DNA of 23,446 nucleotides, from IMG/VR virus record IMGVR_UViG_2698536392_000022, positions 1 to 23,446 of that record; one strand, given 5' to 3'. Shown here one piece after another: positions 1 to 16,771 of the stretch. The notes under the pieces are model-generated. The model made no database searches. It had not been told where the DNA came from and saw only the letters and a list, made by a program, of their open reading frames with translations. The translations under genes and the position numbers were made by a program. The stretch is from a virus. Taxonomy: Duplodnaviria; Heunggongvirae; Uroviricota; Caudoviricetes. Positions within the stretch are counted from its first letter, which is position 1, and the number at the start of each line of letters is the position of its first letter.

Positions 1-942
1 TTAAGTTAATTTTAATGAATGGTACTCTATCGAGCTGATTGTAGATGCGATATATTTACGATCATTTACAGAGAGTATTGCCGCTAGTAGACGACATACC
101 AGAGCCTGCATTTGTAGCAATATATCGCTACCATATTGACAATCATTGATACTAGAGAAACCAAGCGGTTGCCCATTAAAAATGGCTTCATGAAAATTAT
201 CATTGCGTATAACTGAAACATTACATTCATCTGTTGCCCATGACGGGATTTTTACACCGTAATTTTCGCACATCCAATATACTCTATTTTGATGAGATGG
301 TTTTTTCTCTTTAATGACTTTATCCCTTTCATCCCATGCTATAGCAAAACAGCAATCAAGAGCCATATAAAGATACTGGAATTTCTCAAAGGAAAGGTAT
401 AGTGGGTTATGTGATAGGAATAGGGAGTGTATCACCGCAGCTATTCTTTTAATGGAGCGATCATCTTTTTGTTTGTCTTTTATATAGTTAAGTGCTAGCT
501 CTATTACTTCTTTTTCAGAGCATCCAACGAGAATAAAGTCAGTTAACTTAGTGGGCTTGATAGTGGTTGCATCAAGAAAACCAGCGTCAGTGGTTGTCAA
601 TCTTATACCCTTGAAAAAAGAGAGGCACCACACAACAAAGTTGAGAGTTTCTAACGAGGATGTGTTTTTTAATTTTAGTGTGTGCGTTTTGGGCATGCCG
701 AATACTCGGTAACTATAAGGCATTGTGCATGTGTCACCATTAAGGTTATATACCTTTCGATTCCCAGGGTATATCCAACCATTAACAACGTTTTTATCAT
801 TGTTAATACGTTCCACTTTCTCAATAAGACCGGGTAAAGTACGCAAAGAAAATTGTTCAGTCTCAATGTTAACTTCTACTGGATAGTATCCAAACTCCGA
901 AATAATCTCATTTGGTTGCTGTTCATCAACTTCACCTTGCAT
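1..942 (-). CDS. Hypothetical protein, 313 aa, AT-rich cargo gene at the cos-proximal (old/tin-equivalent) position
   Basis: Complete ORF with ATG at 942..940 and stop at 3..1. GGAG Shine-Dalgarno 6 nt upstream on the minus strand. About 30% GC against about 52% in neighbouring phage genes. No family recognised by eye. Confidence 0.7.
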   Translation of the reverse strand: MQGEVDEQQPNEIISEFGYYPVEVNIETEQFSLRTLPGLIEKVERINNDKNVVNGWIYPGNRKVYNLNGDTCTMPYSYRVFGMPKTHTLKLKNTSSLETLNFVVWCLSFFKGIRLTTTDAGFLDATTIKPTKLTDFILVGCSEKEVIELALNYIKDKQKDDRSIKRIAAVIHSLFLSHNPLYLSFEKFQYLYMALDCCFAIAWDERDKVIKEKKPSHQNRVYWMCENYGVKIPSWATDECNVSVIRNDNFHEAIFNGQPLGFSSINDCQYGSDILLQMQALVCRLLAAILSVNDRKYIASTISSIEYHSLKLT

Positions 943-1180
943 AACTTTCTCCGTTCAAAAACAGGCACGATAATTCTCGTAAGCCTATCATGTTCGCAAA
1001 GTATCCATACCTGTGGATTTTGTAAATTTAAGTTGATTTGTCATTAAATAAGCCGTTGCATGCAACAAGTGAATGTTTTTGCATGCGTCGGGGATGTCCG
1101 TTCAGGCTGCGTGCGGTCAGGACTGGTGCGGATCCATAGTATCTATGCAACTGCATTAAAACCGCCCCATGAAGCGGGCG

Positions 1181-1199
1181 GGCGAGGCGGGGAAAGCAC
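1181..1199. other. cos: Phage cos site (19-nt cohesive end, P2-type)
   Basis: Sequence GGCGAGGCGGGGAAAGCAC matches the P2 cohesive end as I recall it. It lies about 170 bp beyond the 3' end of portal gene Q, as in P2. Flanked by a short dyad (ccgccc / gggcgg). Confidence 0.6.
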
Positions 1200-1341: not shown

Positions 1342-1363
1342 AAAAAAGCCGCCCGCAGGCGGC
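1342..1363 (-). terminator. Putative intrinsic terminator downstream of Q (minus strand)
   Basis: GC stem gccgcc / ggcggc with a 4-nt loop at 1348..1363. On the minus strand it is followed by a run of six T (1342..1347). Sits 5 nt after the Q stop. Confidence 0.5.
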
Positions 1364-1368
1364 GATGT

Positions 1369-2403
1369 TCAACCGTTGTCAGTGTCCAGTGAGTAGTTTT
1401 TAAAGCGGATGACCTCCTGACCAAGCCAGCCGTTTATCTCGCGGATCCTGTCCTGTAACGGGATAAGCTCATTGCGGACAAAGACCTTTGCCACTTTCTC
1501 AATATCACCCAGCGACCCGACGTTCTCCGGCTTGCCGCCCATCAACTGAAAGGGGATGCGGTGCGCGTCCAGCAGGTCAGCGGCGCTGGATTTTTTGATA
1601 TTAAAAAAATCGTCCTTCGTTGCCACTTCACTGAGCGGGATAATTTTAATGCCGTCGGCTTTCCCCTGCGGGGCATAGAGAAACAGATTTTTAAAGTTAT
1701 TGCGGCCTTTCGACTTAACCATGTTTTCGCGAAGCATTTCGATATCGTTGCGATCCTGCACGGCATCGGTGACGTACATGATGTATCCGGCATGTGCGCC
1801 GTTTTCGTAATACTTGCGGCGGAACAGCGTGGCCGACTCATTCAGCCAGGCAGAGTTAAGGGCGCTGAGATATTCCGGCAGGCCGTACAGCTCCTGATTA
1901 ATATCCGGCTTCAGCAGGTGAAACACGGAACCGGGCGCGAAGGCTGTCGGCTCGTTGAAGGACGGCACCCACCAGTAAACATCCTCTTCCACACCACGGC
2001 GGGTATATTTTGCCGGTGAGGTTTCCAGTCTGATGACCTTACCGGTGGTGCTGTAACGCTTTTCCAGAAACGCATTACCGAAAACCAGAAAATCCAGCAC
2101 AAAGCGGCTGAAATCCTGCTGGGAAAGCCACGGATGCGGGATAAATGTCGAGGCCAGAATATTACGTTTGACGTAAATCGGTGAACTGTGATGCACGGCA
2201 GCACGCAGGCTTTTTGCCAGACCGGTAAAGCTGACCGGTGGCTCATACCATCTGCCGTTACTGATGCATTCGACGTAATCCAGAATGTCACGGCGGTCGA
2301 GTACCGGCACCGGCTCACCAAAGGTGAATGCCTCCATTTTCGGGGCGCTGGCGGTCATTTTTTTTGCCGCAGGTTGCGGTGTTTTCCCTTTTTTCTTGCT
2401 CAT
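1369..2403 (-). CDS. Q: Portal protein (P2 gpQ-like), 344 aa
   Basis: ORF of 344 aa, the length of P2 gpQ. Position next to cos and 1-nt overlap (ATGA) with the upstream P gene. Confidence 0.93.
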   Translation of the reverse strand: MSKKKGKTPQPAAKKMTASAPKMEAFTFGEPVPVLDRRDILDYVECISNGRWYEPPVSFTGLAKSLRAAVHHSSPIYVKRNILASTFIPHPWLSQQDFSRFVLDFLVFGNAFLEKRYSTTGKVIRLETSPAKYTRRGVEEDVYWWVPSFNEPTAFAPGSVFHLLKPDINQELYGLPEYLSALNSAWLNESATLFRRKYYENGAHAGYIMYVTDAVQDRNDIEMLRENMVKSKGRNNFKNLFLYAPQGKADGIKIIPLSEVATKDDFFNIKKSSAADLLDAHRIPFQLMGGKPENVGSLGDIEKVAKVFVRNELIPLQDRIREINGWLGQEVIRFKNYSLDTDNG

Positions 2404-4175
2404 CAGTAAAACTCCAGAATGGTGGATGTCAGCGGGGTGCTGATACCGGCGGTGAGTGGCTCATTTAACAGGGCGTGCATGGTCGCCCAGGCGAGGTCGG
2501 CGTGGCTGGCTTCCTCGCTGCGGCTGGCCTCATAGGTGGCGCTGCGTCCGCTGCTGGTCATGGTCTTGCGGATAGCCATAAACGAGCTGGTGATGTCGGT
2601 GGCGCTGACGTCATATTCCAGACAGCCACGGCGGATGACGTCTTTTGCCTTGAGCACCATTGCGGTTTTCATTTCCGGCGTGTAGCGGATGTCGCGCGCG
2701 GCGGGATAGAACGAGCGCACGAGCTGGAACACGCCGACACCGAGGCCGGTGGCATCAATACCGATGTATTCGACGTTGTATTTTTCGGTGAGTTTGCGGA
2801 TGGATTCCGCCTGAGTGGCAAAGTCCATGCCTTTCCACTGGTGACGCTCAAGTATTCTGAATTTGCCACCGGCCACCACCGGCGGTGCCAGTACCACGCA
2901 TCCGGCGCTGTCTCCACGGTGTGACGGGTCGTAACCAATCCATACCGGACGTGAGCCGAACGGATTGGCGGCAAACGGCGCATAGTCTTCCCATTCTTCC
3001 AGCGTGTCGACCATGCAGCGTTGCAGTTCCTCGAACGGGAACACCGACGCCTTGTCGTCAACAAATTTACACATGAACAGGTTTTTAAAATCGTCGGCGC
3101 TGTTTTCACGTTTGAGCTGCTCAATGTCGAACAGCGTGCAGCCGCCTTTCAGGGCGTCCTCAATGGTGACAATCTGCCGCCACTGGCCGTCCGCACAGAG
3201 AAGCCCACCGGCAAGGGCGTTATGACTGACGTCGATTTCCACGCGTTCGGCGGCGCTGGCGCGTCCCCGGTTGAACAGTTCACCTGACCAGAACGGGTAG
3301 GCGTCGTGCGCCAGCGTGGACGGGGTGGAGAAATAGGTCGAACGCAGGTGACTCTGTGAGGCCATACCTGATGCCACCTTACGCAGTACCTGAAAATTCG
3401 GGATCCAGAAAATCTCGTCGACGTACAGGTCGCCGTTATGGCTCTGTGCGGTGTTGGAGTTGGTGCCGAGAAAAATCAGTTTTGCGCCGTTATTGCCCAG
3501 GACAATCGGGTCACCGGTCAGGTCAACGTCAACCAGACGGGCAAAGGCGATGATGTATTCGCGGAACACATACGCCTGCGTTTTACTGGCCGACAGAAAA
3601 ATCTGGTTATGGCCGGTTTTCAGGGCGCGCAGCAGCGCCTCGCGGGAAAAATAAAACGTTGCGCCAATCTGGCGGGATTTCAGGATATCGCGGATGCGGT
3701 GCTCAAGCCCGGCACGATACCAGTGCAACTGATAGTCGAAAGACTGCTCAAAGAAAATCTGCTCCAGCTTTTCGATGGCCTCGTCACTGAAAAAATTCTT
3801 TTTCGGTTTGCGACGCCCGCCTTTGTTGCGGTTAGCGACGTTCGGATTAAGGTCTGCCTCGTTGCCGGTCTGGCTGTAGCGGTTTACCCGTGCCAGTCGT
3901 TCAATCTGGCGTCCCAGCAGGTCAATTTCCTTGAAATCACCGCCGGTTTTCTGCGGTTTGATGATGATCTGGGTCAGCCGCGCTTCCAGACTCATTTCGA
4001 CACGGCTGATGGGGGCAACGCTGTCCCAGCCGTCGCGCTGTTTCCAGTTCTGCACCGTCGGGCGTTTCATCTGCAACATGGCGGCAATCTGCGGCACGGA
4101 AAACCCCTGCCAGTACAGCAGCGCCGCCTGACGAGGCGGGTCGTGTAAAAGAGTGGTGTCTGTGGTGATGGTCAT
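2403..4175 (-). CDS. P: Terminase large (ATPase) subunit (P2 gpP-like), 590 aa
   Basis: Start set at the ATG at 4175..4173 (MTITTDTTLLHD...), which matches my recollection of the P2 gpP N-terminus. The ORF-track start 30 nt upstream is a TTG. Confidence 0.92.
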   Translation of the reverse strand: MTITTDTTLLHDPPRQAALLYWQGFSVPQIAAMLQMKRPTVQNWKQRDGWDSVAPISRVEMSLEARLTQIIIKPQKTGGDFKEIDLLGRQIERLARVNRYSQTGNEADLNPNVANRNKGGRRKPKKNFFSDEAIEKLEQIFFEQSFDYQLHWYRAGLEHRIRDILKSRQIGATFYFSREALLRALKTGHNQIFLSASKTQAYVFREYIIAFARLVDVDLTGDPIVLGNNGAKLIFLGTNSNTAQSHNGDLYVDEIFWIPNFQVLRKVASGMASQSHLRSTYFSTPSTLAHDAYPFWSGELFNRGRASAAERVEIDVSHNALAGGLLCADGQWRQIVTIEDALKGGCTLFDIEQLKRENSADDFKNLFMCKFVDDKASVFPFEELQRCMVDTLEEWEDYAPFAANPFGSRPVWIGYDPSHRGDSAGCVVLAPPVVAGGKFRILERHQWKGMDFATQAESIRKLTEKYNVEYIGIDATGLGVGVFQLVRSFYPAARDIRYTPEMKTAMVLKAKDVIRRGCLEYDVSATDITSSFMAIRKTMTSSGRSATYEASRSEEASHADLAWATMHALLNEPLTAGISTPLTSTILEFY

Positions 4176-4205
4176 GAATACCTCGCCGTGATGAATACAC
4201 GGCAA

Positions 4206-4348
4206 GGCTACTGAGTCGCGCCCCGCGATTCGCTAAGGTGCTGTTGTGTCAGTGATAAGCCATCCGGGACTGATGGCGGAGGATGCGCATCGTCGGGAAA
4301 CTGATGCCGACATGTGACTCCTCTAATCACTATTCAGGACTCCTGACA
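4206..4348. promoter_or_regulatory. Divergent P/O intergenic region, expected site of the two Ogr-dependent late promoters
   Basis: Inference from P2 organisation (divergent late operons PQ and ONMLXYK). I could not find a clean TGT-N12-ACA activator site by eye. Confidence 0.35.
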
Positions 4349-5203
4349 ATGGCAAAAAAAGTCTCAAAATTCTTTCGTATCGGCGTTGAGGGTGACACCT
4401 GTGACGGGCGTGTCATCAGTGCGCAGGATATTCAGGAAATGGCCGAAACCTTTGACCCGCGAGTCTACGGTTGCCGCATTAACCTGGAACATCTGCGCGG
4501 CATCCTGCCTGACGGTATTTTTAAACGTTATGGCGATGTGGTCGAACTGAAGGCCGAAAAGATTGACGATGATTCGGCGCTGAAAGGCAAATGGGCGCTG
4601 TTTGCGAAAATCACCCCGACCGATGACCTTATCGCGATGAACAAGGCCGCGCAGAAGGTCTATACCTCAATGGAAATTCAGCCGAACTTTGCCAACACCG
4701 GCAAATGTTATCTGGTGGGGCTGGCCGTCACCGATGACCCGGCAAGCCTCGGCACGGAATACCTGGAATTCTGCCGCACGGCAAAACACAACCCTCTGAA
4801 CCGCTTCAAATTAAGCCCTGAAAACCTGATTTCAGTGGCAACGCCCGTTGAGCTGGAATTTGAAGACCTGCCTGAAACCGTGTTCACCGCCCTGACTGAA
4901 AAGGTGAAATCCATTTTTGGCCGCAAACAGGCCAGCGATGACGCCCGTCTGAATGACGTGCATGAAGCGGTGAGCGCTGTTGCTGAACATGTGCAGGAAA
5001 AACTGAGCGCCACTGATCAGCGCCTCGCTGAGATGGAAACCGCCTTTTCCGCACTTAAGCAGGAGGTGACTGACCAGGTGGATGAAACCAGCCAGGCATT
5101 CACCCGCCTGAAAAACAGTCTCGACAGCACCGAAAGTCTGACCCAGCAGCGCCGCAGCAAGGCCACCGGCGGTGGCGGTGACGCCCTGATGACGAACTGC
5201 TGA
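4349..5203 (+). CDS. O: Capsid scaffolding protein (P2 gpO-like), 284 aa
   Basis: Start at the ATG at 4349 (MAKKVSKFFRIGVEGD...), which matches the P2 gpO N-terminus and length. The upstream in-frame ATG at 4283 lacks a Shine-Dalgarno. Confidence 0.9.
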   Translation: MAKKVSKFFRIGVEGDTCDGRVISAQDIQEMAETFDPRVYGCRINLEHLRGILPDGIFKRYGDVVELKAEKIDDDSALKGKWALFAKITPTDDLIAMNKAAQKVYTSMEIQPNFANTGKCYLVGLAVTDDPASLGTEYLEFCRTAKHNPLNRFKLSPENLISVATPVELEFEDLPETVFTALTEKVKSIFGRKQASDDARLNDVHEAVSAVAEHVQEKLSATDQRLAEMETAFSALKQEVTDQVDETSQAFTRLKNSLDSTESLTQQRRSKATGGGGDALMTNC

Positions 5204-5261
5204 CCGGCGTCAGCCAGTCCGGGAAAACCTTCACGATTAACCCTTAATTTCAGGAAAAACT

Positions 5262-6335
5262 ATGCGCCAGGAAACCCGATTTAAATTTAATGCCTACCTG
5301 TCCCGTGTTGCCGAACTGAACGGCATCGACGCCGGTGATGTGTCGAAAAAATTCACCGTTGAACCGTCGGTCACCCAGACCCTGATGAACACCATGCAGG
5401 AGTCCTCTGATTTCCTGACCCGCATCAACATTGTGCCGGTCAGCGAAATGAAAGGGGAAAAAATTGGCATCGGTGTCACCGGCTCCATCGCCAGCACCAC
5501 CGACACCGCCGGTGGCACCGAGCGTCAGCCGAAGGACTTCTCGAAGCTGGCGTCAAACAAGTACGAATGCGACCAGATTAACTTCGATTTTTATATCCGC
5601 TACAAAACGCTGGACCTTTGGGCGCGTTATCAGGATTTCCAGCTCCGTGTCCGTAACGCCATTATCAAACGCCAGTCCCTTGATTTAATCATGGCCGGTT
5701 TTAACGGCGTGAGGCGTGCCGAAACCTCTGACCGCAGCAGTAACCAGATGCTGCAGGATGTGGCGGTCGGCTGGCTGCAGAAATACCGCAATGAAGCCCC
5801 GGCGCGCGTGATGAGCAAGGTTACTGACGAGGAAGGTCACACGACCTCTGAGGTCATCCGCGTGGGTAAGGGCGGTGATTATGCCAGCCTCGATGCACTG
5901 GTGATGGATGCGACCAACAACCTGATTGAGCCGTGGTATCAGGAAGACCCTGACCTTGTGGTGATTGTGGGGCGTCAGCTACTGGCGGACAAGTATTTCC
6001 CCATCGTCAACAAGGAGCAGGACAACAGCGAGATGCTGGCCGCTGACGTCATCATCAGCCAGAAACGCATCGGTAACCTGCCGGTGGTACGCGTCCCGTA
6101 CTTCCCGGCGGATGCGATGCTCATCACAAAGCTGGAAAACCTGTCCATCTACTACATGGATGACAGCCATCGCCGCGTGATTGAGGAAAACCCGAAACTC
6201 GACCGCGTGGAGAACTACGAGTCAATGAACATTGATTACGTGGTGGAAGACTACGCCGCCGGTTGTCTGGTGGAAAAAATTAAGGTCGGTGATTTCTCCA
6301 CACTGGCTAAAGCGACCGCAGAGCCGGGAGCGTAA
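5262..6335 (+). CDS. N: Major capsid protein (P2 gpN-like), 357 aa
   Basis: 357 aa as in P2 gpN. AGGA Shine-Dalgarno upstream of ATG. Position between O and M. Confidence 0.93.
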   Translation: MRQETRFKFNAYLSRVAELNGIDAGDVSKKFTVEPSVTQTLMNTMQESSDFLTRINIVPVSEMKGEKIGIGVTGSIASTTDTAGGTERQPKDFSKLASNKYECDQINFDFYIRYKTLDLWARYQDFQLRVRNAIIKRQSLDLIMAGFNGVRRAETSDRSSNQMLQDVAVGWLQKYRNEAPARVMSKVTDEEGHTTSEVIRVGKGGDYASLDALVMDATNNLIEPWYQEDPDLVVIVGRQLLADKYFPIVNKEQDNSEMLAADVIISQKRIGNLPVVRVPYFPADAMLITKLENLSIYYMDDSHRRVIEENPKLDRVENYESMNIDYVVEDYAAGCLVEKIKVGDFSTLAKATAEPGA

Positions 6336-6338
6336 CCG

Positions 6339-7082
6339 ATGACGAGTCCCGCACAGCGCCACATGATGCGGGTCTCGGCAGCGATGACCGCGCAGCGGGA
6401 AGCCGCCCCGCTGCGACATGCAACTGTCTATGAGCAGATGCTGGTTAAGCTCGCCGCAGACCAGCGCACACTGAACGCGATTTATTCAAAAGAGCTGAAG
6501 GCCGCGAAAAAACGCGAACTGCTGCCGTTCTGGTTGCCGTGGGTGAACGGCGTGCTGGAGCAGGGCAAAGGTGCACAGGATGACATTCTGATGACGGTCA
6601 TGCTGTGGCGTCTGGATACCGGCGATATTGCCGGTGCGCTGGAGATTGCCCGTTATGCTCTGAAGTACGGTCTGACCATGCCGGGTAAACACCGCCGTAC
6701 CCCGCCGTACATGTTCACCGAGGAGGTAGCGCTTGCGGCCATGCGCGCTCACGCTGCCGGTGAGTCTGTGGATACCCGCCTGCTGACGGAGACCCTTGAA
6801 CTGACCGCCACGGCTGACATGCCTGATGAAGTGCGCGCAAAGCTGCACAAAATTACCGGTCTGTTTCTGCGTGACGGTGGTGATGCCGCCGGTGCGCTGG
6901 CTCACCTGCAACGTGCGACACAGCTCGACTGTCAGGCAGGCGTCAAAAAAGAGATTGAACGACTGGAGCGGGAGCTGAAACCGAAGCCGGAGCCGCAGCC
7001 CAAAGCGTCCCCCCGCGCCCCGCGTAAGACCCGGAGCGTGACACCGGCAAAACGTGGACGCCCGAAAAAGAAAGCCAGTTAA
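6339..7082 (+). CDS. M: Terminase small subunit (P2 gpM-like), 247 aa
   Basis: 247 aa as in P2 gpM. Lys/Arg/Pro-rich basic C-terminal tail. GGGAG Shine-Dalgarno. Confidence 0.9.
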   Translation: MTSPAQRHMMRVSAAMTAQREAAPLRHATVYEQMLVKLAADQRTLNAIYSKELKAAKKRELLPFWLPWVNGVLEQGKGAQDDILMTVMLWRLDTGDIAGALEIARYALKYGLTMPGKHRRTPPYMFTEEVALAAMRAHAAGESVDTRLLTETLELTATADMPDEVRAKLHKITGLFLRDGGDAAGALAHLQRATQLDCQAGVKKEIERLERELKPKPEPQPKASPRAPRKTRSVTPAKRGRPKKKAS

Positions 7083-7181
7083 CAACCGAATGCGCCCCGC
7101 GCCAGGGCGGCACGCCGGTCAGTGATGGTGAATCACCTGACGCTGTACCGGCGTCCACCGCCCGACTTTTCAGAGGTAGTC

Positions 7182-7688
7182 ATGATGACGCTGATTATTC
7201 CGCGAAAGGAGGCTCCCGTGTCCGGTGAGGGTACGGTGGTCATCCCGCAACCGGCAGGCGACGAGCCGGTGATTAAAAACACGTTCTTTTTTCCCGATAT
7301 CGACCCGAAGCGCGTCCGGGAACGTATGCGCCTTGAGCAGACCGTCGCCCCCGCCCGTCTGCGTGAGGCCATCAAGTCAGGCATGGCGGAGACGAATGCG
7401 GAGTTGTACGAGTACCGCGAACAGAAAATTGCCGCCGGTTTTACGCGTCTGGCGGACGTTCCGGCGGACGACATCGACGGTGAAAGTATCAAATTTTACT
7501 ACGAGCGCGCCGTGTGTGCGATGGCGACCGCGTCGCTTTATGAGCGTTACCGCGGCGTGGATGCCAGTGCGAAAGGAGACAAGAAGGCCGACAGCATTGA
7601 CAGCACCATAGATGAGCTGTGGCGGGATATGCGCTGGGCAGTGGCGCGCATCCAGGACAAGCCGCGCTGCATCGTGAGTCAAATCTGA
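7182..7688 (+). CDS. L: Head completion/stabilisation protein (P2 gpL-like), 168 aa
   Basis: Start at ATGATG 7182 (MMTLIIPRKE...) with GAGG Shine-Dalgarno. The ORF-track start at 7122 is a GTG. Stop overlaps the X start (TGATG). Confidence 0.88.
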   Translation: MMTLIIPRKEAPVSGEGTVVIPQPAGDEPVIKNTFFFPDIDPKRVRERMRLEQTVAPARLREAIKSGMAETNAELYEYREQKIAAGFTRLADVPADDIDGESIKFYYERAVCAMATASLYERYRGVDASAKGDKKADSIDSTIDELWRDMRWAVARIQDKPRCIVSQI

Positions 7689-7891
7689 TGAAGACCTTTG
7701 CGCTACAGGGCGACACGCTCGACGCCATTTGTGTCCGGTATTACGGGCGCACTGAGGGCGTGGTTGAGACCGTGCTCGCCGCAAATCCGGGACTGGCTGA
7801 ACTGGGTGCGGTGCTGCCACACGGCACCGCCGTCGAACTGCCCGACGTTCAGACCGCGCTCGTGGCTGAAACTGTCAATCTGTGGGAGTAA
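7688..7891 (+). CDS. X: Tail protein X (P2 gpX-like), 67 aa
   Basis: ATG at 7688 overlapping the L stop. MKTFALQGDTLDAICVRYYG... and 67 aa as in P2 gpX. Confidence 0.85.
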   Translation: MKTFALQGDTLDAICVRYYGRTEGVVETVLAANPGLAELGAVLPHGTAVELPDVQTALVAETVNLWE

Positions 7892-7894
7892 CGC

Positions 7895-8176
7895 ATGACA
7901 GCAGAAGAAAAAAGCGTCCTGTCGCTTTTCATGATTGGGGTGCTGATTGTTGTCGGCAAGGTGCTTGCCGGTGGTGAACCCATCACCCCGCGTCTGTTTA
8001 TCGGGCGCATGTTGCTCGGTGGTTTTGTCTCGATGGTTGCCGGTGTTGTTCTGGTGCAGTTTCCTGACCTGTCACTGCCTGCGGTGTGCGGCATCGGCTC
8101 CATGCTGGGTATCGCCGGTTATCAGGTAATTGAGATTGCCATTCAGCGCCGCTTTAAGGGCAGGGGGAAACCGTAA
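7895..8176 (+). CDS. Y: Holin (P2 gpY-like), 93 aa
   Basis: 93 aa with hydrophobic membrane segments and a charged C-terminus. GGGAG Shine-Dalgarno. Immediately precedes the endolysin gene. Confidence 0.9.
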   Translation: MTAEEKSVLSLFMIGVLIVVGKVLAGGEPITPRLFIGRMLLGGFVSMVAGVVLVQFPDLSLPAVCGIGSMLGIAGYQVIEIAIQRRFKGRGKP

Positions 8177-8673
8177 TGCCGGTAATTAACACGCATCAGA
8201 ATATCGCTGCCTTTCTCGACATGCTGGCCGTGTCCGAAGGGACGGCGAATCATCCGCTGACGAAAAACCGGGGCTATGACGTGATAGTCACCGGAGTGGA
8301 CGGAAAGCCGGAAATCTTCACCGACTACAGTGACCACCCGTTCGCACATGGCCGACCGGCGAAGGTGTTTAACCGTCGCGGTGAAAAATCCACGGCCTCC
8401 GGTCGCTATCAGCAGCTTTACCTGTTCTGGCCGCATTACCGCAAACAGCTTGCCCTGCCGGATTTCAGTCCGTTGTCACAGGACAGACTCGCCATTCAGT
8501 TGATCCGCGAACGCGGTGCGCTGGATGACATCCGGGCGGGGCGCATTGAGCGCGCCATTTCACGCTGTCGCAATATCTGGGCGTCCCTGCCGGGTGCCGG
8601 TTACGGTCAGCGTGAGCATTCACTGGAAAAACTGGTCACCGTCTGGCGTACCGCTGGCGGCGTACCGGCTTAA
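8176..8673 (+). CDS. K: Endolysin / lysozyme (P2 gpK-like), 165 aa
   Basis: 165 aa as in P2 gpK. Start overlaps the Y stop (TAATG). Position in the lysis cassette. Confidence 0.92.
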   Translation: MPVINTHQNIAAFLDMLAVSEGTANHPLTKNRGYDVIVTGVDGKPEIFTDYSDHPFAHGRPAKVFNRRGEKSTASGRYQQLYLFWPHYRKQLALPDFSPLSQDRLAIQLIRERGALDDIRAGRIERAISRCRNIWASLPGAGYGQREHSLEKLVTVWRTAGGVPA

Positions 8674-8687
8674 ACGGAGTAAACACC

Positions 8688-9122
8688 ATGAAGAAATTAT
8701 CCCTTTCACTGATGCTGAACGTGTCGCTGGCGCTGATGCTGGCACTGTCCCTGATTTACCCGCAGAGCGTGGCCGTCAGTTTTGTCGCTGCCTGGTCGAT
8801 TCTGGCGACGGTTATCTGTGTGGTTGCCGGTGGTGTCGGCGTGTACGCCACTGAGTATGTGCTGGAACGCTACGGGCGGGAGCTGCCGCCGGAATCGCTG
8901 GCCGTGAAGATTGTCACGTCGCTGTTTTTGCAGCCGGTGCCGTGGCGCAGACGGGCGGCGGCTCTGGTGGTGATGGTGGTGATGGTGGTGACGTTTATCT
9001 CGCTGGTCGCTGCCGGGTGGATTTTTACCGCGCTGATTTATCTCGTGACGTCGGTGTTCTTCCGGCTGATACGTACGGCCTGCCGTCAGCGTTTTGAGGG
9101 GCGGGAACCATGTCAAAGCTGA
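8688..9122 (+). CDS. lysA: Lysis timing membrane protein LysA-like, 144 aa
   Basis: Strongly hydrophobic multi-segment protein following K. GGAG Shine-Dalgarno. Position as P2 lysA. Confidence 0.85.
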   Translation: MKKLSLSLMLNVSLALMLALSLIYPQSVAVSFVAAWSILATVICVVAGGVGVYATEYVLERYGRELPPESLAVKIVTSLFLQPVPWRRRAAALVVMVVMVVTFISLVAAGWIFTALIYLVTSVFFRLIRTACRQRFEGREPCQS

Positions 9123-9535
9123 TGATTGTGCTGGTCGTGTTGTTATCGCTGGCGGTGGCGGGGCTGTTTCTGGCGAAGCATGAAAACGCCAGCCTGCGCG
9201 CCTCGCTGGACAGGGCGAACAGCGTCGCCAACGGGCAGCAGACGACCATCACCATGCTGAAAAATCAGCTTCATGTTGCCCTCACCAGAGCAGACAAAAA
9301 CGAGCTGGCGCAGGTGGCACTGCGTCAGGAACTGGAAAACGCCGCGAAGCGTGAAGCACAGCGCGAGAAAACCATCACGAGGTTACTTAATGAAAACGAA
9401 GATTTTCGCCGCTGGTACGGCGCTGACCTGCCTGATGCTGTGCGCCGGTTGCACCAGCGCCCCGCCTGCGCAGACGCCAGTGATTGTCGCCAACGCCTGC
9501 CCGAAAGTGAGCCTTTGCCCGATGCCGGGCAGTGA
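9110..9535 (+). CDS. lysB: LysB-like (Rz-type inner-membrane spanin), 141 aa
   Basis: N-terminal transmembrane segment followed by a coiled-coil-like charged region. 141 aa as in P2 LysB. Confidence 0.85.
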   Translation: MSKLMIVLVVLLSLAVAGLFLAKHENASLRASLDRANSVANGQQTTITMLKNQLHVALTRADKNELAQVALRQELENAAKREAQREKTITRLLNENEDFRRWYGADLPDAVRRLHQRPACADASDCRQRLPESEPLPDAGQ

Positions 9536-9680
9536 CCCGCAGACGAACGGCGATTTAAGTGCCGATATCCGGCAGCTTGAGAACGCGCTGGCGCGCTGTG
9601 CCAGCCAGGTAAAAATGATTAAACACTGTCAGGACGAAAACGATGCTCAAACCCGACAGCCTGCGCAGGGCGCTGACTGA
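9390..9680 (+). CDS. lysC: LysC-like (Rz1-type outer-membrane lipoprotein spanin), 96 aa, embedded out of frame in lysB and overlapping R
   Basis: ATG at 9390 in the +1 frame of lysB. Product begins MKTKIFAAGTALTCLMLCAGC, a signal peptide plus lipobox (LCAGC), and is Pro-rich. Confidence 0.75.
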   Translation: MKTKIFAAGTALTCLMLCAGCTSAPPAQTPVIVANACPKVSLCPMPGSDPQTNGDLSADIRQLENALARCASQVKMIKHCQDENDAQTRQPAQGAD

Positions 9681-10110
9681 TGCCGTCACGGTGCTGAAAA
9701 CTAACCCCGATATGCTGCGGATATTCGTGGATAACGGGAGTATTGCCTCCACGCTGGCGACGTCGTTGTCATTCGAAAAGCGTTACACGCTCAATGTGAT
9801 TGTGACCGACTTTACCGGTGATTTTGACCTGCTCATCGTGCCGGTGCTGGCGTGGCTGCGGGAAAATCAGCCCGACATCATGACTACCGACGCAGGCCAG
9901 AAAAAGGGCTTCACGTTTTATGCAGACATCAACAATGACAGCAGCTTTGATATCAGCATCAGCCTGATGCTGACCGAGCGCACGCTGGTCAGTGAGGTTG
10001 ACGGCGCACTGCATGTGAAGAATATCCCGGAACCCCCGCCGCCGGAGCCGGTCAACCGCCCGATGGAGCTTTATATCAATGGCGAACTGGTGAGCAAGTG
10101 GGATGAATGA
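9643..10110 (+). CDS. R: Tail completion protein (P2 gpR-like), 155 aa
   Basis: 155 aa as in P2 gpR. AGGA Shine-Dalgarno. Gene order. Confidence 0.9.
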   Translation: MLKPDSLRRALTDAVTVLKTNPDMLRIFVDNGSIASTLATSLSFEKRYTLNVIVTDFTGDFDLLIVPVLAWLRENQPDIMTTDAGQKKGFTFYADINNDSSFDISISLMLTERTLVSEVDGALHVKNIPEPPPPEPVNRPMELYINGELVSKWDE

Positions 10111-10555
10111 GTTTAAGCGTTTTGAAGACCGGCTGACCGGATTGACTGAATCGCTGTCACCGTCAGGGCGTCGGCGACTGAGTGCCGAACTGGCGAAGCG
10201 CCTGCGGCAGAGTCAGCAGCGTCGGGTGATGACACAGAAAGCCCCGGACGGCAAACCCTACGCGCCACGCCAGCAGCAGAGCGCCAGAAAAAAGACTGGT
10301 CGTGTTAAGCGAAAAATGTTTGCGAAACTTATCACCAGTCGTTTTTTGCATATCCGCGCCAGCCCGGAACAGGCATCAATGGAGTTTTACGGCGGGAAGT
10401 CACCGAAAATCGCCAGTGTGCATCAGTTCGGTCTGTCGGAAGAAACCCGGAAAGACGGTAAGAAAATTGATTATCCGGCGCGTCCTCTGCTCGGCTTTAC
10501 CGGTGAGGATGTGCAGATGATTGAAGAGATTATCCTGGCTCACCTTGAGCGTTAG
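10103..10555 (+). CDS. S: Tail completion protein (P2 gpS-like), 150 aa
   Basis: 150 aa as in P2 gpS. Overlaps the R stop. Gene order. Confidence 0.9.
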   Translation: MNEFKRFEDRLTGLTESLSPSGRRRLSAELAKRLRQSQQRRVMTQKAPDGKPYAPRQQQSARKKTGRVKRKMFAKLITSRFLHIRASPEQASMEFYGGKSPKIASVHQFGLSEETRKDGKKIDYPARPLLGFTGEDVQMIEEIILAHLER

Positions 10556-10585
10556 TTTTATCCAGGCAGAGGCTGATGCGCAATT

Positions 10586-10620
10586 AAACATTGAGCGGCT
10601 GTGCTGGTCGCTCAATGTTT
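10586..10620. terminator. Putative bidirectional intrinsic terminator between convergent S and orf30-like genes
   Basis: Perfect 12-bp inverted repeat aaacattgagcg / cgctcaatgttt (10586..10597 and 10609..10620) with an 11-nt loop. The A/T ends of the arms give a U-tract in both directions. Confidence 0.5.
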
Positions 10621-10626
10621 AGAGGA

Positions 10627-11412
10627 TTATGAGTGGTTTTTATTTGATGATTTGTATTCTACAACTTTTTTATTGGCGTAAAGGAATTTTGTATATGACA
10701 GAAGTATAACCAGACCTGAAGTGAAATAGACGAGGGATATTATTAATAATGTTTTTCTGTGGCTGTTATTATCTTTAATCTCCTGACTTAACCATTCGGA
10801 GTCCTCCTCGTTTAGCTGTAAGAGCTTATTGCAGGCGATTGCAGGAAGTGTGTCTGTTACAAAAGTGTTCTGCAGTCTCTTGCAATCGGCAATGCTAAAA
10901 GCTTTATAGAACTTATCTGTTTTATTGTCGGAGAACAAAAGAACCTTGTCATTATAAACATGGTACATCATATTTTTATATGGTATGGCTATGGCATCCT
11001 CTACTATGGCAGATTGCTCGTTGTGTATGCAACATGCGAAGGTAATATAAAGAATTCCGGCCAGGACTGCACTCATTGTTTTTGTGATGCATGGCGGTTC
11101 TGTTATGTCTCCCCAGAAGCGAGTAAGGAAAAAATCCGATGTTTTTAGTTTTCCATCAATCAACCCCTGCTGTATCATTTTCACATCTTTGATGCCTGAT
11201 ACATTGATTCCGTTAATTATTTTAAATAGTTGAATGTCGCGCCACTCGCGGTCCAGTCTTTTTAATTTTTTATCTGAATATCCAAATTTGAAATAATGTG
11301 CAATAAGCCTCATAAGGTTACTTTTACCAAAGCTAAAAAATGCTAATACTACAAAGACCAAAAGATACAAGACGATTAGCTCCCACACATTAGTCACATT
11401 ATAGCTGACCAT
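10627..11412 (-). CDS. Hypothetical membrane protein at the P2 orf30 position, 261 aa from the ATG start, antisense to the late operons
   Basis: ATG at 11412..11410 with a strong AAGGAG Shine-Dalgarno 6 nt upstream on the minus strand. The longer ORF-track form starts at a TTG. AT-rich. Hydrophobic segments near both termini. Confidence 0.7.
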   Translation of the reverse strand: MVSYNVTNVWELIVLYLLVFVVLAFFSFGKSNLMRLIAHYFKFGYSDKKLKRLDREWRDIQLFKIINGINVSGIKDVKMIQQGLIDGKLKTSDFFLTRFWGDITEPPCITKTMSAVLAGILYITFACCIHNEQSAIVEDAIAIPYKNMMYHVYNDKVLLFSDNKTDKFYKAFSIADCKRLQNTFVTDTLPAIACNKLLQLNEEDSEWLSQEIKDNNSHRKTLLIISLVYFTSGLVILLSYTKFLYANKKVVEYKSSNKNHS

Positions 11413-11495
11413 TACGCTCTCCTTGAATGTTGTCTGGTGGTTCTGCAAATGAATCCAGATAGCATAACTTTTATATATTGTGCAATCTCACATGC

Positions 11496-12131
11496 ATGAA
11501 CACTCTCGCAAATATTCAGGAACTCGCGCGCGCACTGCGCAACATGATTCGCACCGGCATTATCGTCGAAACCGACCTTAACGCCGGTCGCTGCCGCGTG
11601 CAGACCGGCGGCATGTGCACCGACTGGCTTCAGTGGCTGACCCATCGCGCAGGACGTTCGCGCACATGGTGGGCACCTTCCGTGGGGGAACAGGTGCTGA
11701 TTCTGGCCGTGGGTGGTGAACTTGACACGGCGTTCGTTCTGCCGGGGATTTATTCCGGCGATAACCCCGCGCCGTCTGCGTCGGCGGATGCCCTGCATAT
11801 CCGTTTCCCTGACGGGGCGGTGATTGAGTATGAACCCGAAACCAGTGCACTCACGGTAAGCGGAATTAAAACGGCCAGCGTGACGGCTTCTGATTCTGTT
11901 ACTGCCACTGTGCCGGTGGTCATGGTGAAAGCGTCAACCCGCATCACCCTGGACACACCGGAGGTGGTCTGCACCAACAGGCTGATTACCGGCACGCTGG
12001 AAGTACAGAAGGGCGGGACGATGCGTGGCAACATTGAACACACCGGCGGTGAACTCTCATCAAACGGGAAGGTACTGCATACCCATAAACACCCCGGCGA
12101 CAGCGGCGGCACAACCGGGAGTCCTCTATGA
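11496..12131 (+). CDS. V: Baseplate spike/assembly protein (P2 gpV-like), 211 aa
   Basis: ATG at 11496 (MNTLANIQELARALRNM...) matches the P2 gpV N-terminus and length. The ORF-track start is an upstream TTG. Confidence 0.9.
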   Translation: MNTLANIQELARALRNMIRTGIIVETDLNAGRCRVQTGGMCTDWLQWLTHRAGRSRTWWAPSVGEQVLILAVGGELDTAFVLPGIYSGDNPAPSASADALHIRFPDGAVIEYEPETSALTVSGIKTASVTASDSVTATVPVVMVKASTRITLDTPEVVCTNRLITGTLEVQKGGTMRGNIEHTGGELSSNGKVLHTHKHPGDSGGTTGSPL

Positions 12132-13921: not shown

Positions 13922-16240
13922 ATGAGCACAAAATTCAGAACCGTTATCACCACTGCCGGTGCAGCAAAGCTGGCAGCGGCAACCGCACCGGGAGGGCGGA
14001 AGGTCAACATTACCACGATGGCCGTCGGGGATGGCGGTGGTAAATTGCCTGTCCCGGATGCCGGACAGACCGGGCTTATCCACGAAGTCTGGCGACATGC
14101 GCTGAACAAAATCAGTCAGGACAAACGAAACAGTAATTATATTATCGCAGAGCTGGTTATTCCGCCGGAGGTGGGCGGTTTCTGGATGCGTGAGCTTGGC
14201 CTGTACGATGATGCGGGAACGTTAATTGCCGTGGCGAACATGGCCGAAAGTTATAAGCCAGCTCTTGCCGAAGGCTCAGGGCGTTCGCAGACCTGCCGCA
14301 TGGTCATCATCGTCAGCAGTGTGGCCTCAGTGGATCTGACCATTGACACTACAACGGTGATGGCAACGCAGGATTACGTTGATGACAAAATTGCAGAGCA
14401 CGAACAGTCACGACGTCACCCGGACGCCTCGCTGACCGCAAAAGGTTTTACTCAGTTAAGCAGTGCGACCAACAGCACGTCTGAAACACTGGCCGCAACG
14501 CCGAAAGCGGTAAAGGCCGCCTATGACCTTGCTAACGGGAAATATACTGCGCAGGATGCCACCACGGCGCGAAAAGGCCTTGTTCAGCTCAGTAGTGTGA
14601 CCAACAGCACGTCTGAAACGCTCGCCGCAACGCCGAAAGCGGTAAAGGCAGCATATGACCTTGCTAACGGGAAATACACTGCACAGGACGCCACCACCGC
14701 GCGAAAAGGCCTTGTTCAGCTCAGTAGCGCCACCAACAGCGATTCTGAAACGCTTGCGGCAACACCAAAGGCGGTTAAGACAGCGTATGACCTTGCTAAC
14801 GGGAAATACACTGCACAGGATGCCACCACTGCGCGAAAAGGTCTTGTCCAGCTCAGTAGCGCCACCAACAGTGATTCTGAAACCCTCGCGGCAACGCCAA
14901 AAGCAGTGAAGTCTGCCTATGACAATGCTGAAAAACGTCTTCAGAAAGATCAGAACGGTGCGGATATTCCGGGAAAGGATACCTTTACGAAAAATATCGG
15001 TGCCTGTCGTGCTTATAGCGGCGCTTTGAGCACTGAAGCCGGAAACTGGACAACCGCTCAGTTTATTGAATGGCTGGATTCCCGTGGTGCATTTAATCAT
15101 CCGTACTGGATGTGCAAAGGCTCCTGGTCATATGCAAATAACAAAATCATTACGGATACCGGATGTGGTGATATCCACCTGGCTGGTTGTGTAGTCGAGG
15201 TCATGGGAACTAAATCTGCAATCACTATCCGAGTGACCACGCCGACAACATCAAGCGGTGGCGGTACAACCAGCGCACAATTCACTTACATTAATCATGG
15301 GGACGGCTACTCCCCCGGCTGGCGTCGTGACTGGAATCGTCAGGGCGACTCAATGACCGGAACGATTAATCAGGATGGCGGAAGCCAGAATGCCTATATG
15401 TCTACGGCCTTATGTTCAGGCACCAGAGGCGGCAAAAAATATCTCAGAAAGTTTCGTGGTGGAGAAGGAGATACTATCTGGCATGAAACAGTTCAGGGCG
15501 GGGTAGTTCGCTGGGCGACTGGTAATACTGATACTCAGGAAGAATTATCACTCAGCTCCGCTTATGGTCTCCGTTCAAGAGGTGAGATTACATCACTCAG
15601 TGCTAATGGTCTGCGCATCGCTTATGGCAATTATGGATTCTTTATCAGGAATGATGGCGGCAGCACATATTTAATGCTGACGGCCTCTGGCGATAAATTT
15701 GGGACATGGAACGGCTTAAGACCGCTGACTATCAATAACGCCAATGGCGGAGTGTCAATGGGGCATGGCCTGAGTGTTACAGGTGATATTGTCTCAAGTA
15801 CCAAAGTACGTGCCGGTAGCGGGAAAAAGTTCACGGTCAGCAGCAGCAATACATCCACGAAGGAAGCCGCATTCAATTTGTGGGGAAACTCAAGTCGTCC
15901 TGTGGTGGCTGAATTAGGTGATGATGCAGGCTGGCATTTTTACAGTCAGAGAAATACAGATAACAGCATCACTTTTGCTGTTAACGGGCAGGTATCACCA
16001 TCTAATTATAGTAATTTTGATTCACGCTATGTCCGGGATATCCGGCTTGGTGGTGCTGCCACATACAAACCTGCGAACAATGGCATGACATGGACACATC
16101 AGGCACCGTCCGGGTGTGTATATTCCGGCATTATTGTTCAGGATACCGGCTCAAACTCTGCCGATAACATTGGTGGCGTATATTACAGACCGGTTCAGAA
16201 ATACATTAACGGGACATGGTACAACGTGGCGCAGGTATAA
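13922..16240 (+). CDS. H: Tail fibre protein (P2 gpH-like), 772 aa, with internal tandem repeats
   Basis: N-terminus MSTKFRTVITTAGAAKLAAATAPG... is gpH-like and the C-terminal end ...YINGTWYNVAQV is fibre-like. Longer than P2 gpH (669 aa as I recall) because of extra 44-aa repeats. Confidence 0.92.
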   Translation: MSTKFRTVITTAGAAKLAAATAPGGRKVNITTMAVGDGGGKLPVPDAGQTGLIHEVWRHALNKISQDKRNSNYIIAELVIPPEVGGFWMRELGLYDDAGTLIAVANMAESYKPALAEGSGRSQTCRMVIIVSSVASVDLTIDTTTVMATQDYVDDKIAEHEQSRRHPDASLTAKGFTQLSSATNSTSETLAATPKAVKAAYDLANGKYTAQDATTARKGLVQLSSVTNSTSETLAATPKAVKAAYDLANGKYTAQDATTARKGLVQLSSATNSDSETLAATPKAVKTAYDLANGKYTAQDATTARKGLVQLSSATNSDSETLAATPKAVKSAYDNAEKRLQKDQNGADIPGKDTFTKNIGACRAYSGALSTEAGNWTTAQFIEWLDSRGAFNHPYWMCKGSWSYANNKIITDTGCGDIHLAGCVVEVMGTKSAITIRVTTPTTSSGGGTTSAQFTYINHGDGYSPGWRRDWNRQGDSMTGTINQDGGSQNAYMSTALCSGTRGGKKYLRKFRGGEGDTIWHETVQGGVVRWATGNTDTQEELSLSSAYGLRSRGEITSLSANGLRIAYGNYGFFIRNDGGSTYLMLTASGDKFGTWNGLRPLTINNANGGVSMGHGLSVTGDIVSSTKVRAGSGKKFTVSSSNTSTKEAAFNLWGNSSRPVVAELGDDAGWHFYSQRNTDNSITFAVNGQVSPSNYSNFDSRYVRDIRLGGAATYKPANNGMTWTHQAPSGCVYSGIIVQDTGSNSADNIGGVYYRPVQKYINGTWYNVAQV
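14441..14925 (+). repeat. In-frame tandem repeat in H, period 132 bp (44 aa), about 3.7 copies
   Basis: Units start at 14441, 14573, 14705 and 14837 and encode KG(F/L)(T/V)QLSS(A/V)TNS(T/D)SETLAATPKAVKxAYDLANGKYTAQDATTAR. Copies differ at a few mostly synonymous or conservative positions. Confidence 0.88.
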
Positions 16241-16243
16241 TTT

Positions 16244-16771
16244 ATGCAGCATTTGATAAATATAACGGTGGGTAATCCAAAAACAGTTGAACAATATCAA
16301 TTGACAAAGGACTTTGATGTCGTCTGGTTTTTTACAGAAGATGGTAAGAACTGGTACGAAGAACAAAAGTATTTTGCTGATGACACGATAAAAATAGCGT
16401 ACGACAAAGATAATATCATCCGCTATGTGGAAAAGGATGTGACAGCTATCAGACCGGATGGATTAAGTGTTGTTGAAGTGGCGGATATTACTGCTAACCG
16501 ACGGGCGGACATTTCAGGGAACTGGATGTTTAAGGACGGCAAAGTGATTAAACGCATTTATACGGCAGAGGAATTACAGCAGCAGGCAGAAATTCGGAAA
16601 GCCAGACTTCTTGCAGATGCTGAATCCGTGATTTTGCCGCTGGAGCGCGCTGTCAGGTTGAACATGGCAACAGAGGAGGAGCGCACACGGCTGGAGGCTT
16701 GGGAACGCTACAGCGTTGTGGTCAGTCGTGTGGATCCTGCAAATCCTGAATGGCCGGAAATGCCGCAATAA
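16244..16771 (+). CDS. G: Tail fibre assembly chaperone (P2 gpG-like), 175 aa
   Basis: 175 aa immediately downstream of H. Length and position as P2 gpG. Confidence 0.88.

What the first reader, a model, noticed from the sequence alone, without database searches (positions are those of the whole stretch)
1..1180. Cargo gene at the cos-proximal hotspot (P2 old/tin position), first gene of a unit reading out of the window
In a P2 prophage the right-end accessory genes (old, tin) lie just across cos from Q. Here that position holds an AT-rich 313-aa ORF of unrecognised family, transcribed away from cos, with start at 942 and stop at the window edge. Its composition contrasts sharply with Q and P. 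Any partner genes of a multi-gene system would lie to the left, outside this window.
Basis: partly seen in the sequence, partly recalled or inferred. Interest (0 to 1): 0.7.

Follow-up and report, generated by a model that had tools for sequence, protein, structure and literature searches.

The report
Orphan HEPN nuclease at P2 hotspot
The AT-rich gene next to the packaging site of this P2-like prophage is a complete, stand-alone gene for a predicted RNA-cutting (HEPN) protein with an unknown sensor-like front half, most likely a one-gene anti-phage defence that has been flagged by a machine-learning screen but never tested.

Summary
A 313-codon ORF runs from 942 to 1 on the minus strand, at 37% GC against 52-60% for Q and P. 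It starts 239 bp from the P2 cos site (1181-1199) and has the position and orientation of P2 old.

In intact relatives it is the only gene on its strand. It ends at a hairpin shared with the converging A operon. In the source genome the DNA to the left is that operon's tail, interrupted by IS2.

Neighbours differ in every lineage but are often defence genes (Gabija, DUF4238, AbiH, TIR, type I R-M, GmrSD). DefensePredictor lists this protein cluster as a predicted novel defence gene (log-odds 9.7), untested.

Best reading: a single-protein HEPN abortive-infection RNase, analogous to ApeA, HepS and DARNA but a member of none.

The parts
1..942 (-). Complete CDS of the 313-aa protein (start codon 942-940, stop 3-1). 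RefSeq WP_001620979.1; 'ORF313' of P2-EC67; PHROG 5937.
   Evidence: dN/dS is about 0.27. The exact protein is on 565 contigs.
517..942 (-). N-terminal alpha/beta domain (residues 1-142), an orphan fold and the putative sensor or regulatory module. It contains the invariant residues H87, G112, R114, D124 and D135, and the family's most conserved block (residues 106-135).
4..516 (-). C-terminal helical HEPN domain (residues 143-313), with an insertion between the core helices.
187..207 (-). Catalytic HEPN motif R246-N247-D-N-F-H251-E252 (Rx4H), in helix 242-256.
   Evidence: R246, N247, H251 and E252 are invariant in 39 sequences down to 43% identity. H251 is invariant, and R246 and N247 are at least 90% conserved, in 33 sequences down to 23% identity. 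Helix position.
220..321 (-). Hypervariable patch (residues 208-241) in the HEPN insertion just before the catalytic helix. It retains the conserved H217, R220, P233 and W235.
   Evidence: Identity here is only 35-42% to enterobacterial relatives that are 80-91% identical in residues 11-142.
943..1150 (-). The gene's own 5' region, which travels with it as part of the cassette. It holds a Shine-Dalgarno GGAG at 949-952, a weak sigma-70-like site at 1044-1017, and a GCATGC-containing inverted repeat at 1053-1068 / 1076-1091.
   Evidence: The last 190 bp or so are conserved even in the Salmonella 186-like phage copy. Promoter scan: 9/12 match, not above shuffles. Inverted repeat. No tandem repeats of the RNA-antitoxin type. 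The cassette's right boundary is where ORF-less P2 phages begin to match, about 1130-1147, and where the P2 reference itself begins to match, about 1150.
1162..1181 (-). GC-rich hairpin followed by a T run, abutting cos. It would insulate the cargo gene from read-through of the late Q-P transcript.
   Evidence: The sequence is shared with the P2 reference.
1181..1199 (+). cos, the 19-nt cohesive end of P2.
   Evidence: The linear phage genome VB-YPM-4 ends at window position 1180.
1348..1363 (-). Terminator-like hairpin after portal gene Q (context).

Best explanation
The gene is a self-contained, single-gene lysogenic-conversion cassette that occupies the place of old/tin in a P2-like prophage.

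Its product is a two-domain protein. The C-terminal HEPN domain is a metal-independent endoribonuclease with an R-N-x3-H active site. HEPN enzymes normally form this site across a homodimer. The tightly packed N-terminal domain of unknown fold, together with a variable insertion in the HEPN domain, keeps the nuclease silent until infection by another phage supplies a trigger.

Once activated, it cuts cellular RNA, most probably tRNA anticodon loops as ApeA, HepS, DARNA and PrrC do. This stops translation and aborts the infection, protecting the lysogen population and the prophage.

Shown here:
- The gene is intact, under purifying selection, stand-alone and mobile between elements.
- It has a HEPN fold and a conserved catalytic motif.
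- Its neighbours are enriched in defence genes.

Inferred:
- RNase activity.
- A defence phenotype.
- An abortive-infection mode.

Speculative:
- tRNA as the target.
- The N-terminal domain or the residue 208-241 patch as the sensor.
- The nature of the trigger. The very high conservation of residues 106-135 hints at a conserved small ligand in an inter-domain pocket, as in ApeA. The variable patch hints instead at a phage protein.
For: - **Position and orientation:** identical to P2 old/tin.
- **Stand-alone gene:** it has its own conserved 5' region, and the DNA beyond the window holds a convergent hairpin.
- **Catalytic motif:** R246, N247, H251 and E252 are conserved across the family, which comprises 648 clusters with a uniform length of about 300 aa.
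- **Purifying selection:** dN/dS is about 0.27.
- **No conserved partner, but repeated defence neighbours:** Gabija and a DUF1016 nuclease; DUF4238, a validated defence (with PMC9122126); DUF3800, AbiH and TIR in a tmRNA island, and type I R-M plus GmrSD.
- **Carriage on several kinds of mobile element:** an opposite-strand moron in a P22-portal-type prophage, integrase/resolvase and TniB elements, and conjugative plasmids.
- **Machine-learning prediction:** DefensePredictor Table S10 lists a 313-aa E. coli protein whose cluster representative is WP_001620979.1, with log-odds 9.68 (cutoff 4), as a 'Predicted novel defense gene'.
- **Compatibility with its carrier:** the viable phages vB_YpM_46 and VB-YPM-4 carry an identical copy, so the gene does not block its own phage. 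This parallels HepS and Gifsy-1 (PMC13043305).
Against: - No sequence method links the family to HEPN or to any defence model: Pfam, NCBIfam, PADLOC, PDB profile search and hhalign all fail. Foldseek is weak. The HEPN call therefore rests on a predicted structure plus a short motif.
- No experiment exists. The gene was not among the units cloned by Rousset 2022 or DefensePredictor.
- DefensePredictor validated only 45% of its cloned predictions.
- A different 'putative HEPN' from the P2 hotspot appears in Rousset's table of additional tested systems, not among the validated ones.
- The promoter match is not above chance.
- The carrying prophage in the source genome is degraded: A is truncated, cox is frameshifted and there are two IS elements.
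- In Aeromonas the flanks are housekeeping genes.
Confidence: 0.6

Rival explanations
1. It is an addiction or stabilisation toxin, not an immune protein. On this view a HEPN RNase is held in check by an unrecognised antitoxin (a small protein or RNA), and its role is to keep the prophage or island in the cell.
For: Minimal HEPN proteins (HepT) are classic TA toxins and are the best structural matches. The gene is carried on many mobile elements, including plasmids. A small XRE-type HTH gene lies just upstream in one Pseudomonas contig.
Against: No MNT or other conserved neighbour appears in any of 11 contexts. In P2-like phages nothing is co-transcribed with it. There are no tandem repeats of the type III antitoxin kind. 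The 42-codon upstream ORF is not conserved. The extra 140-aa domain suggests built-in regulation.
Confidence: 0.1
2. It serves the phage's own life cycle or acts in counter-defence. For example, it could be an RNase that degrades host or competitor RNA during lytic growth, or one that destroys host immune RNAs.
For: It is found in plaque-forming P2-like phages, and it sits next to the packaging site.
Against: Most family members lie in non-phage islands next to host defence genes. The gene is dispensable: about 98% of the E. coli P2-like cos/Q regions that matched lack it. It occupies the old/tin lysogenic-conversion slot and is transcribed opposite to the early operon.
Confidence: 0.1
3. It is a HEPN-fold protein that is not a nuclease. 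It could be a ligand-binding or regulatory protein, since many HEPN domains are non-catalytic, or the fold assignment could be wrong, leaving the function unrelated to RNA cleavage.
Confidence: 0.12
4. One reading: the ORF is the first gene of a multi-gene defence operon whose partners lie to the left of the window.
For: The window ends at the stop codon, so nothing inside the window excludes it.
Against: In the source genome and in intact phages, the next genes to the left are on the opposite strand and belong to the A operon, with a hairpin in between. No co-directional downstream gene is conserved in any lineage.
Confidence: 0.03

Closest known systems
ApeA (Gao_Ape; Gao et al. 2020; bioRxiv 10.64898/2026.01.26.701840)
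   Same: Both are single-gene defences with a C-terminal HEPN domain bearing insertions and an N-terminal region without known homologs. In both cases the closest structural match of the HEPN domain is HepT (5yep/7ae8 for ApeA; 7ae2/5yep here). ApeA is also found in P2 and P4 hotspots (Rousset 2022 tables). One family member carries a UniProt 'Apea-like HEPN' label.
   Different: ApeA is about 580 aa with three domains (N, Mid and a split HEPN) and forms decamers or dodecamers. This protein is 313 aa with two domains. The PADLOC ApeA model and Pfam HEPN_Apea match neither it nor any of about 70 relatives. The tRNA target and the dinucleotide trigger are unknown here.
HepS of Salmonella prophage Gifsy-1 (Nature 2026, PMC13043305)
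   Different: HepS is a single-HEPN-domain protein (a 218-residue chain in 9oik) with no extra N-terminal domain. There is no sequence similarity. The HepS trigger, siphovirus tail-tip protein J, is not established here.
DARNA / PD-T7-3 (bioRxiv 10.64898/2026.02.22.705581)
   Same: Both are single-protein HEPN abortive-infection systems in which a non-catalytic domain would sense the trigger. DARNA is a tRNA anticodon nuclease.
   Different: The domain order is reversed: DARNA has the HEPN at the N terminus and a 300-aa Pds5-like C-terminal domain that binds ssDNA, for 456 aa in total. PADLOC gives no hit.
HepT-MntA type VII toxin-antitoxin
   Different: HepT is about 130-140 aa and is always paired with an MNT nucleotidyltransferase antitoxin. 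No such partner is present in any context here, and this protein has an extra 140-aa domain.
P2 Old and Tin
   Same: Same locus, strand and orientation, with the same role expected (lysogenic-conversion exclusion genes transcribed from a promoter just inside cos).
   Different: The proteins are unrelated. Old is an ABC-ATPase plus TOPRIM nuclease, and Tin is a different protein again.

Membership tests
HEPN superfamily | Up-and-down four-helix-bundle core fold | tested here: met
HEPN superfamily | Conserved Rx4-6H motif (commonly R-[NHD]-x3-H) on the catalytic helix | tested here: met
   R246, N247 and H251 are invariant in A1. In A2, H251 is invariant and R246 and N247 are at least 90% conserved. 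The motif lies in helix 242-256, before the last long helix 267-289.
HEPN superfamily | Detectable by a sequence profile (Pfam HEPN clan models) | tested here: not met
   No Pfam hit for about 70 members at E up to 1-10. The PDB profile search and hhalign were negative.
HEPN superfamily | Homodimer with a composite active site, and RNase activity | not testable with these tools
   No multimer prediction or biochemistry was available.
ApeA (Gao_Ape) | Match to the ApeA / HEPN_Apea models | tested here: not met
   PADLOC (which includes ApeA) and Pfam give no hits. The UniProt label on P0092 could not be reproduced.
ApeA (Gao_Ape) | Architecture of about 580 aa with N, Mid and split-HEPN domains | tested here: not met
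   The protein is 313 aa with two domains, and the family is uniformly 290-325 aa.
ApeA (Gao_Ape) | Single-gene system | tested here: met
   No conserved neighbour in 11 contexts.
HepT-MntA toxin-antitoxin | Adjacent MNT nucleotidyltransferase antitoxin gene | tested here: not met
   None in any context examined.
Type III TA / AbiF-like (RNA antitoxin) | Tandem repeat array upstream of the toxin gene | tested here: not met
   TRF finds only a weak 15-nt x2 repeat at 1102-1131, and there are no direct-repeat families.
P2 A-Q (old/tin) hotspot cargo | Lies between gpA and gpQ next to cos, and is variable among otherwise similar phages | tested here: met
   The hotspot definition is from PMC9122126.
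P2 A-Q (old/tin) hotspot cargo | Own promoter active in the lysogen | tested here: inconclusive
   The 5' region is conserved, but the sigma-70 match is no better than in shuffles. No expression data are available.
Validated anti-phage defence system | Experimentally shown protection | not testable with these tools
   Only an ML prediction exists (log-odds 9.68, Table S10 of PMC13092281). The gene is not in the tested sets.

The most novel reading that the evidence does not exclude
The family is an unnamed, widespread (648 clusters), minimal two-domain immune protein. Its orphan N-terminal fold would be a new kind of infection sensor, allosterically gating a HEPN RNase within only about 310 residues. 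The sensing logic (a conserved inter-domain pocket plus a hypervariable patch next to the active site) would differ from that of ApeA, HepS and DARNA.
Probability: 0.3. Interest if true: 0.65.

Novelty: new variant of a known kind. Interest (0 to 1): 0.5.

Why it matters
Single-protein HEPN systems (ApeA, HepS, DARNA) are currently the clearest models for how one polypeptide both senses infection and executes abortive infection. Each solved case has revealed a different trigger: dinucleotides, a tail-tip protein, and SSB-bound ssDNA.

This family is smaller than ApeA or DARNA. It is invisible to current domain and defence-finder models. It is widespread in Gammaproteobacteria, with some beta- and alphaproteobacterial plasmid copies, and it is carried by viable model-type P2-like phages of E. 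coli and Yersinia. That makes it an easy experimental target.

It also gives a worked example of the share of P2-like phages (19% in the 2026 P2/P4 study) that have no recognisable defence gene at their hotspot. The finding is not surprising in kind, however, because cargo at this hotspot is expected to be defensive.

Tried and rejected
- **Sequence-family searches:** Pfam, NCBIfam and PADLOC on the query and on about 70 relatives gave nothing. The only NCBIfam line (E 0.014, 15 bits against a cutoff of 243) is noise.
- **PDB sequence searches:** phmmer and profile searches returned only spurious RNR-R2 N-terminal hits at E of about 0.02.
- **hhalign:** comparison of the family profile with two single HEPN sequences taken from DefensePredictor tables gave a probability below 1%.
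- **Foldseek against PDB:** no hit with E at or below 0.001.
- **AFDB50 fold search:** the library was not available.
- **Rousset 2022's tested 'Putative HEPN' from the P2 locus (pFR103):** it is a different protein.
- **The original ORF313 description (Odegrip et al. 2006):** not held in the library.
- **Upstream 42-codon ORF (1156-1028):** rejected as a partner gene because it is truncated to 22 codons in the Salmonella copy.
- **RNA-antitoxin repeats:** rejected.
- **DUF3850/ASCH plus the 68-aa ORF to the left as partners:** rejected. They are on the opposite strand and belong to the A operon (orf91 in P2), and they are replaced by ORF73/ORF226 or by DinI in other carriers.

Full report
**1. 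Observation**

The window begins with the stop codon of a 313-codon ORF on the minus strand, running from the ATG at 942-940 to the TAA at 3-1.
- The gene is 36.7% G+C, the whole window is 52.1%, and the neighbouring Q and P genes are 52-60%.
- The 19-nt P2 cohesive end GGCGAGGCGGGGAAAGCAC occurs once, at 1181-1199. It is identical to the annotated cosR of P2.
- The finding's end coordinate of 1180 is therefore the last base before cos. The linear genome of Yersinia phage VB-YPM-4 ends at exactly that base.
- Portal gene Q (1369-2403) and terminase P (2403-4175) follow on the minus strand.
- In P2 itself, old and tin are on this same strand. They are transcribed leftward from starts about 150 bp inside cosR and converge on the A-orf91 operon.

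**2. What lies to the left**

The window is 100% identical to E. coli 2013C-4830 (NZ_CP027325.1).
- There the ORF is annotated WP_001620979.1, hypothetical protein.
- The next features to the left are an IS2, a 69-aa ORF, a DUF3850 gene and a truncated replication gene A, with the A-operon genes on the plus strand.
- Alignment with the intact free phage vB_YpM_46 shows that IS2 is inserted in the 68-aa ORF of the A operon, about 165 bp beyond the ORF313 stop. ORF313 and the inverted repeat between the convergent genes are untouched.
- In vB_YpM_46 the ORF is the only minus-strand gene between A and the right genome end.
- In P2-EC67 it converges on ORF73/ORF226.
- In Salmonella diarizonae it sits in the same Q|A slot of a 186-like phage (CI repressor, Fil, CP76), converging on DinI.

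So the gene is a single-gene cassette, not the head of an operon.

The 190 bp or so upstream of the start codon move with the gene, including a GGAG Shine-Dalgarno and a GCATGC-containing inverted repeat at 1053-1091. This region is better conserved than the synonymous sites of the coding region. Homology to ORF-less P2 phages starts only at about 1130-1150. The sigma-70 consensus match at 1044-1017 is no better than chance, so the promoter remains inferred.

**3. The protein**

Pfam, NCBIfam and PADLOC give nothing. PHROG 5937 (unknown function) matches end to end.

The family is large.
- There are 260 word-indexed homologs.
- The exhaustive profile search finds 648 clusters at 50% identity. 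They are almost all 290-325 aa and match across both halves.
- Members come from Enterobacterales, Aeromonas, Pseudomonas, Acinetobacter, Stenotrophomonas, Lysobacter and Rheinheimera, and from Burkholderia and Bradyrhizobium plasmids.

Conservation and selection:
- In 39 sequences down to 43% identity, R246, N247, H251 and E252 are invariant.
- In 33 sequences down to 23% identity, H251 is invariant and R246 and N247 are at least 90% conserved. H87, G112, E186, G261 and R284 are also invariant there.
- R-N-x3-H is the canonical HEPN active-site motif (Anantharaman et al. 2013, PMC3710099).
- dN/dS against two enterobacterial variants is 0.27.

Structure:
- The AlphaFold2 model is confident (pLDDT 82.6, pTM 0.84). 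It has a beta-rich domain at about residues 10-140 and a helical domain at 143-300. The motif lies in helix 242-256, followed by a long helix at 267-289.
- Foldseek is weak, but its only sensible hits are also HepT.

Two further features:
- Residues 106-135 and 166-195 are the most conserved blocks.
- Residues 208-241, an insertion just before the catalytic helix, are only 35-42% identical to relatives that are 80-91% identical in the N-terminal domain. This points to a locally fast-evolving or recombined patch.

**4. Context elsewhere**

No neighbour is conserved, but defence genes recur.
- **P. aeruginosa:** an island with DUF932 and ParB, and a Gabija pair 3 kb away, plus DUF1016.
- **Acinetobacter seifertii:** the gene lies directly after a DUF4238 gene. 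DUF4238 is a single-gene defence validated from this same P2 hotspot (PMC9122126).
- **Providencia:** a tmRNA-site island with an integrase, DUF3800, AbiH and a TIR protein, and a second site beside type I R-M and GmrSD.
- **Stenotrophomonas:** near TniB.
- **P. viridiflava:** an integrase/resolvase element.
- **Buttiauxella:** an island with HNH, SNase and a DNA methylase.
- **Acinetobacter guillouiae:** an opposite-strand moron inside the structural module of a P22-portal-type prophage.
- **Aeromonas:** a small insertion after an AlkZ-like gene, among housekeeping genes.

Abundance:
- Among sequenced phages, only six distinct P2-type enterobacterial phages carry it (seven records including a RefSeq duplicate), and five plasmids do.
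- In E. coli, 50 of 5,426 complete genomes hold most of the query, out of 2,161 that match its conserved cos/Q end.

**5. Literature**
- Rousset et al. 2022 defined the A-Q hotspot and tested eight further systems from it. Their 'Putative HEPN' (pFR103) is a different protein.
- The 2026 P2/P4 study reports that 19% of P2-like phages have no recognisable defence gene at the locus, and it tested only P4 unknowns.
- DefensePredictor (Science 2026, PMC13092281) lists, in Table S10, a 313-aa E. coli protein whose cluster representative is WP_001620979.1. Table S10 holds predicted, uncharacterised clusters of the E. coli pangenome. The mean log-odds is 9.68 (cutoff 4), and no homology to known defence is recorded. 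The protein is absent from the tables of cloned units.
- So the family has been computationally flagged, but not named, analysed or tested.
- Mechanistic precedents are ApeA, HepS and DARNA. All three are single HEPN proteins that cleave tRNA anticodon loops after sensing, respectively, deoxydinucleotides, a tail-tip protein and SSB-bound ssDNA.

**6. Interpretation**

The best explanation (confidence about 0.6) is a stand-alone HEPN RNase immune protein of the abortive-infection type, carried as lysogenic-conversion cargo.
- It works like ApeA, HepS and DARNA but is a member of none. The ApeA and other defence models do not match, and both the size and the domain organisation differ.
Each is weakened by the context data, and the multi-gene unit is refuted by the leftward sequence.
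- The main weakness is that the HEPN assignment depends on a predicted structure plus a short motif, and no experiment exists.

**7. Verdict**

This is a real, intact and mobile single-gene cassette. It is a new variant of a known kind of system. Interest is moderate, at 0.5: it is a very tractable candidate with an orphan sensor domain, but it is unsurprising in kind for this hotspot and has already been flagged by an ML screen.

Noticed in passing
window 10627-11412 (-): A second AT-rich accessory ORF of 261 aa (about 40% GC against 57-61% in the flanks). It lies on the opposite strand between the S-like (10103-10555) and V-like (11478-12131) genes, which is the P2 orf30 variable locus. It has no Pfam or PADLOC hit and is annotated hypothetical (WP_024245775.1).
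   Followed up: partly
window 17053-18396 (+): A third AT-rich accessory ORF of 447 aa (about 33% GC). It lies between the tail-fibre genes (13922-16771) and the sheath gene (18655-19845), which is the P2 Z/fun position. It has no Pfam or PADLOC hit, so it is another uncharacterised candidate cargo gene.
   Followed up: partly
L001 (NZ_CP027325.1) 3300-11750, left of the window: The prophage carrying the window is degraded: cox is frameshifted, there is an IS3-family insertion in the early region, gene A is truncated, and an IS2 sits in the 68-aa ORF next to ORF313. The HEPN gene is nevertheless intact and 100% identical to the copy in the viable phage vB_YpM_46.
   Followed up: partly
window 1053-1068 / 1076-1091: An inverted repeat containing two TTGCATGC cores 21 bp apart (GTTGCATGCAAC is itself a 12-bp palindrome). 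It lies in the conserved 5' region of the gene, and the cores are retained in the Salmonella 186-like copy. It is a possible operator or RNA structure.
   Followed up: no
window 220-321 (-), residues 208-241: A hypervariable patch inside the HEPN insertion. It is about 40% identical between variants whose N-terminal domains are about 90% identical, which suggests diversifying selection or segmental recombination next to the active site.
   Followed up: partly
P0092 (Acinetobacter tianfuensis homolog): [quoted passage not shown] The current Pfam (2025 copy) gives no HEPN_Apea hit for it or its relatives even at E up to 10, so the label could not be reproduced.
   Followed up: yes
L001 9942-10594; L003 7269-7927; P2 orf91: A DUF3850/ASCH-domain gene, plus a small ORF of about 68 aa, follows gene A on the plus strand in P2, vB_YpM_46 and the source prophage. 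Other ORF313 carriers have ORF73/ORF226 or DinI in that place. The hotspot therefore has two independently variable halves that converge on one hairpin.
   Followed up: partly
L011 5907-7957; L017 5561-7951; L018 5663-7951; L008 6684-8963: In four unrelated lineages the homolog lies 80-220 bp downstream of a co-directional gene of about 340-400 aa, from a different family each time: DUF4238, DUF3800, GmrSD_C and AlkZ-like. This is probably defence-island stacking and not a partnership, but the regularity is notable.
   Followed up: no
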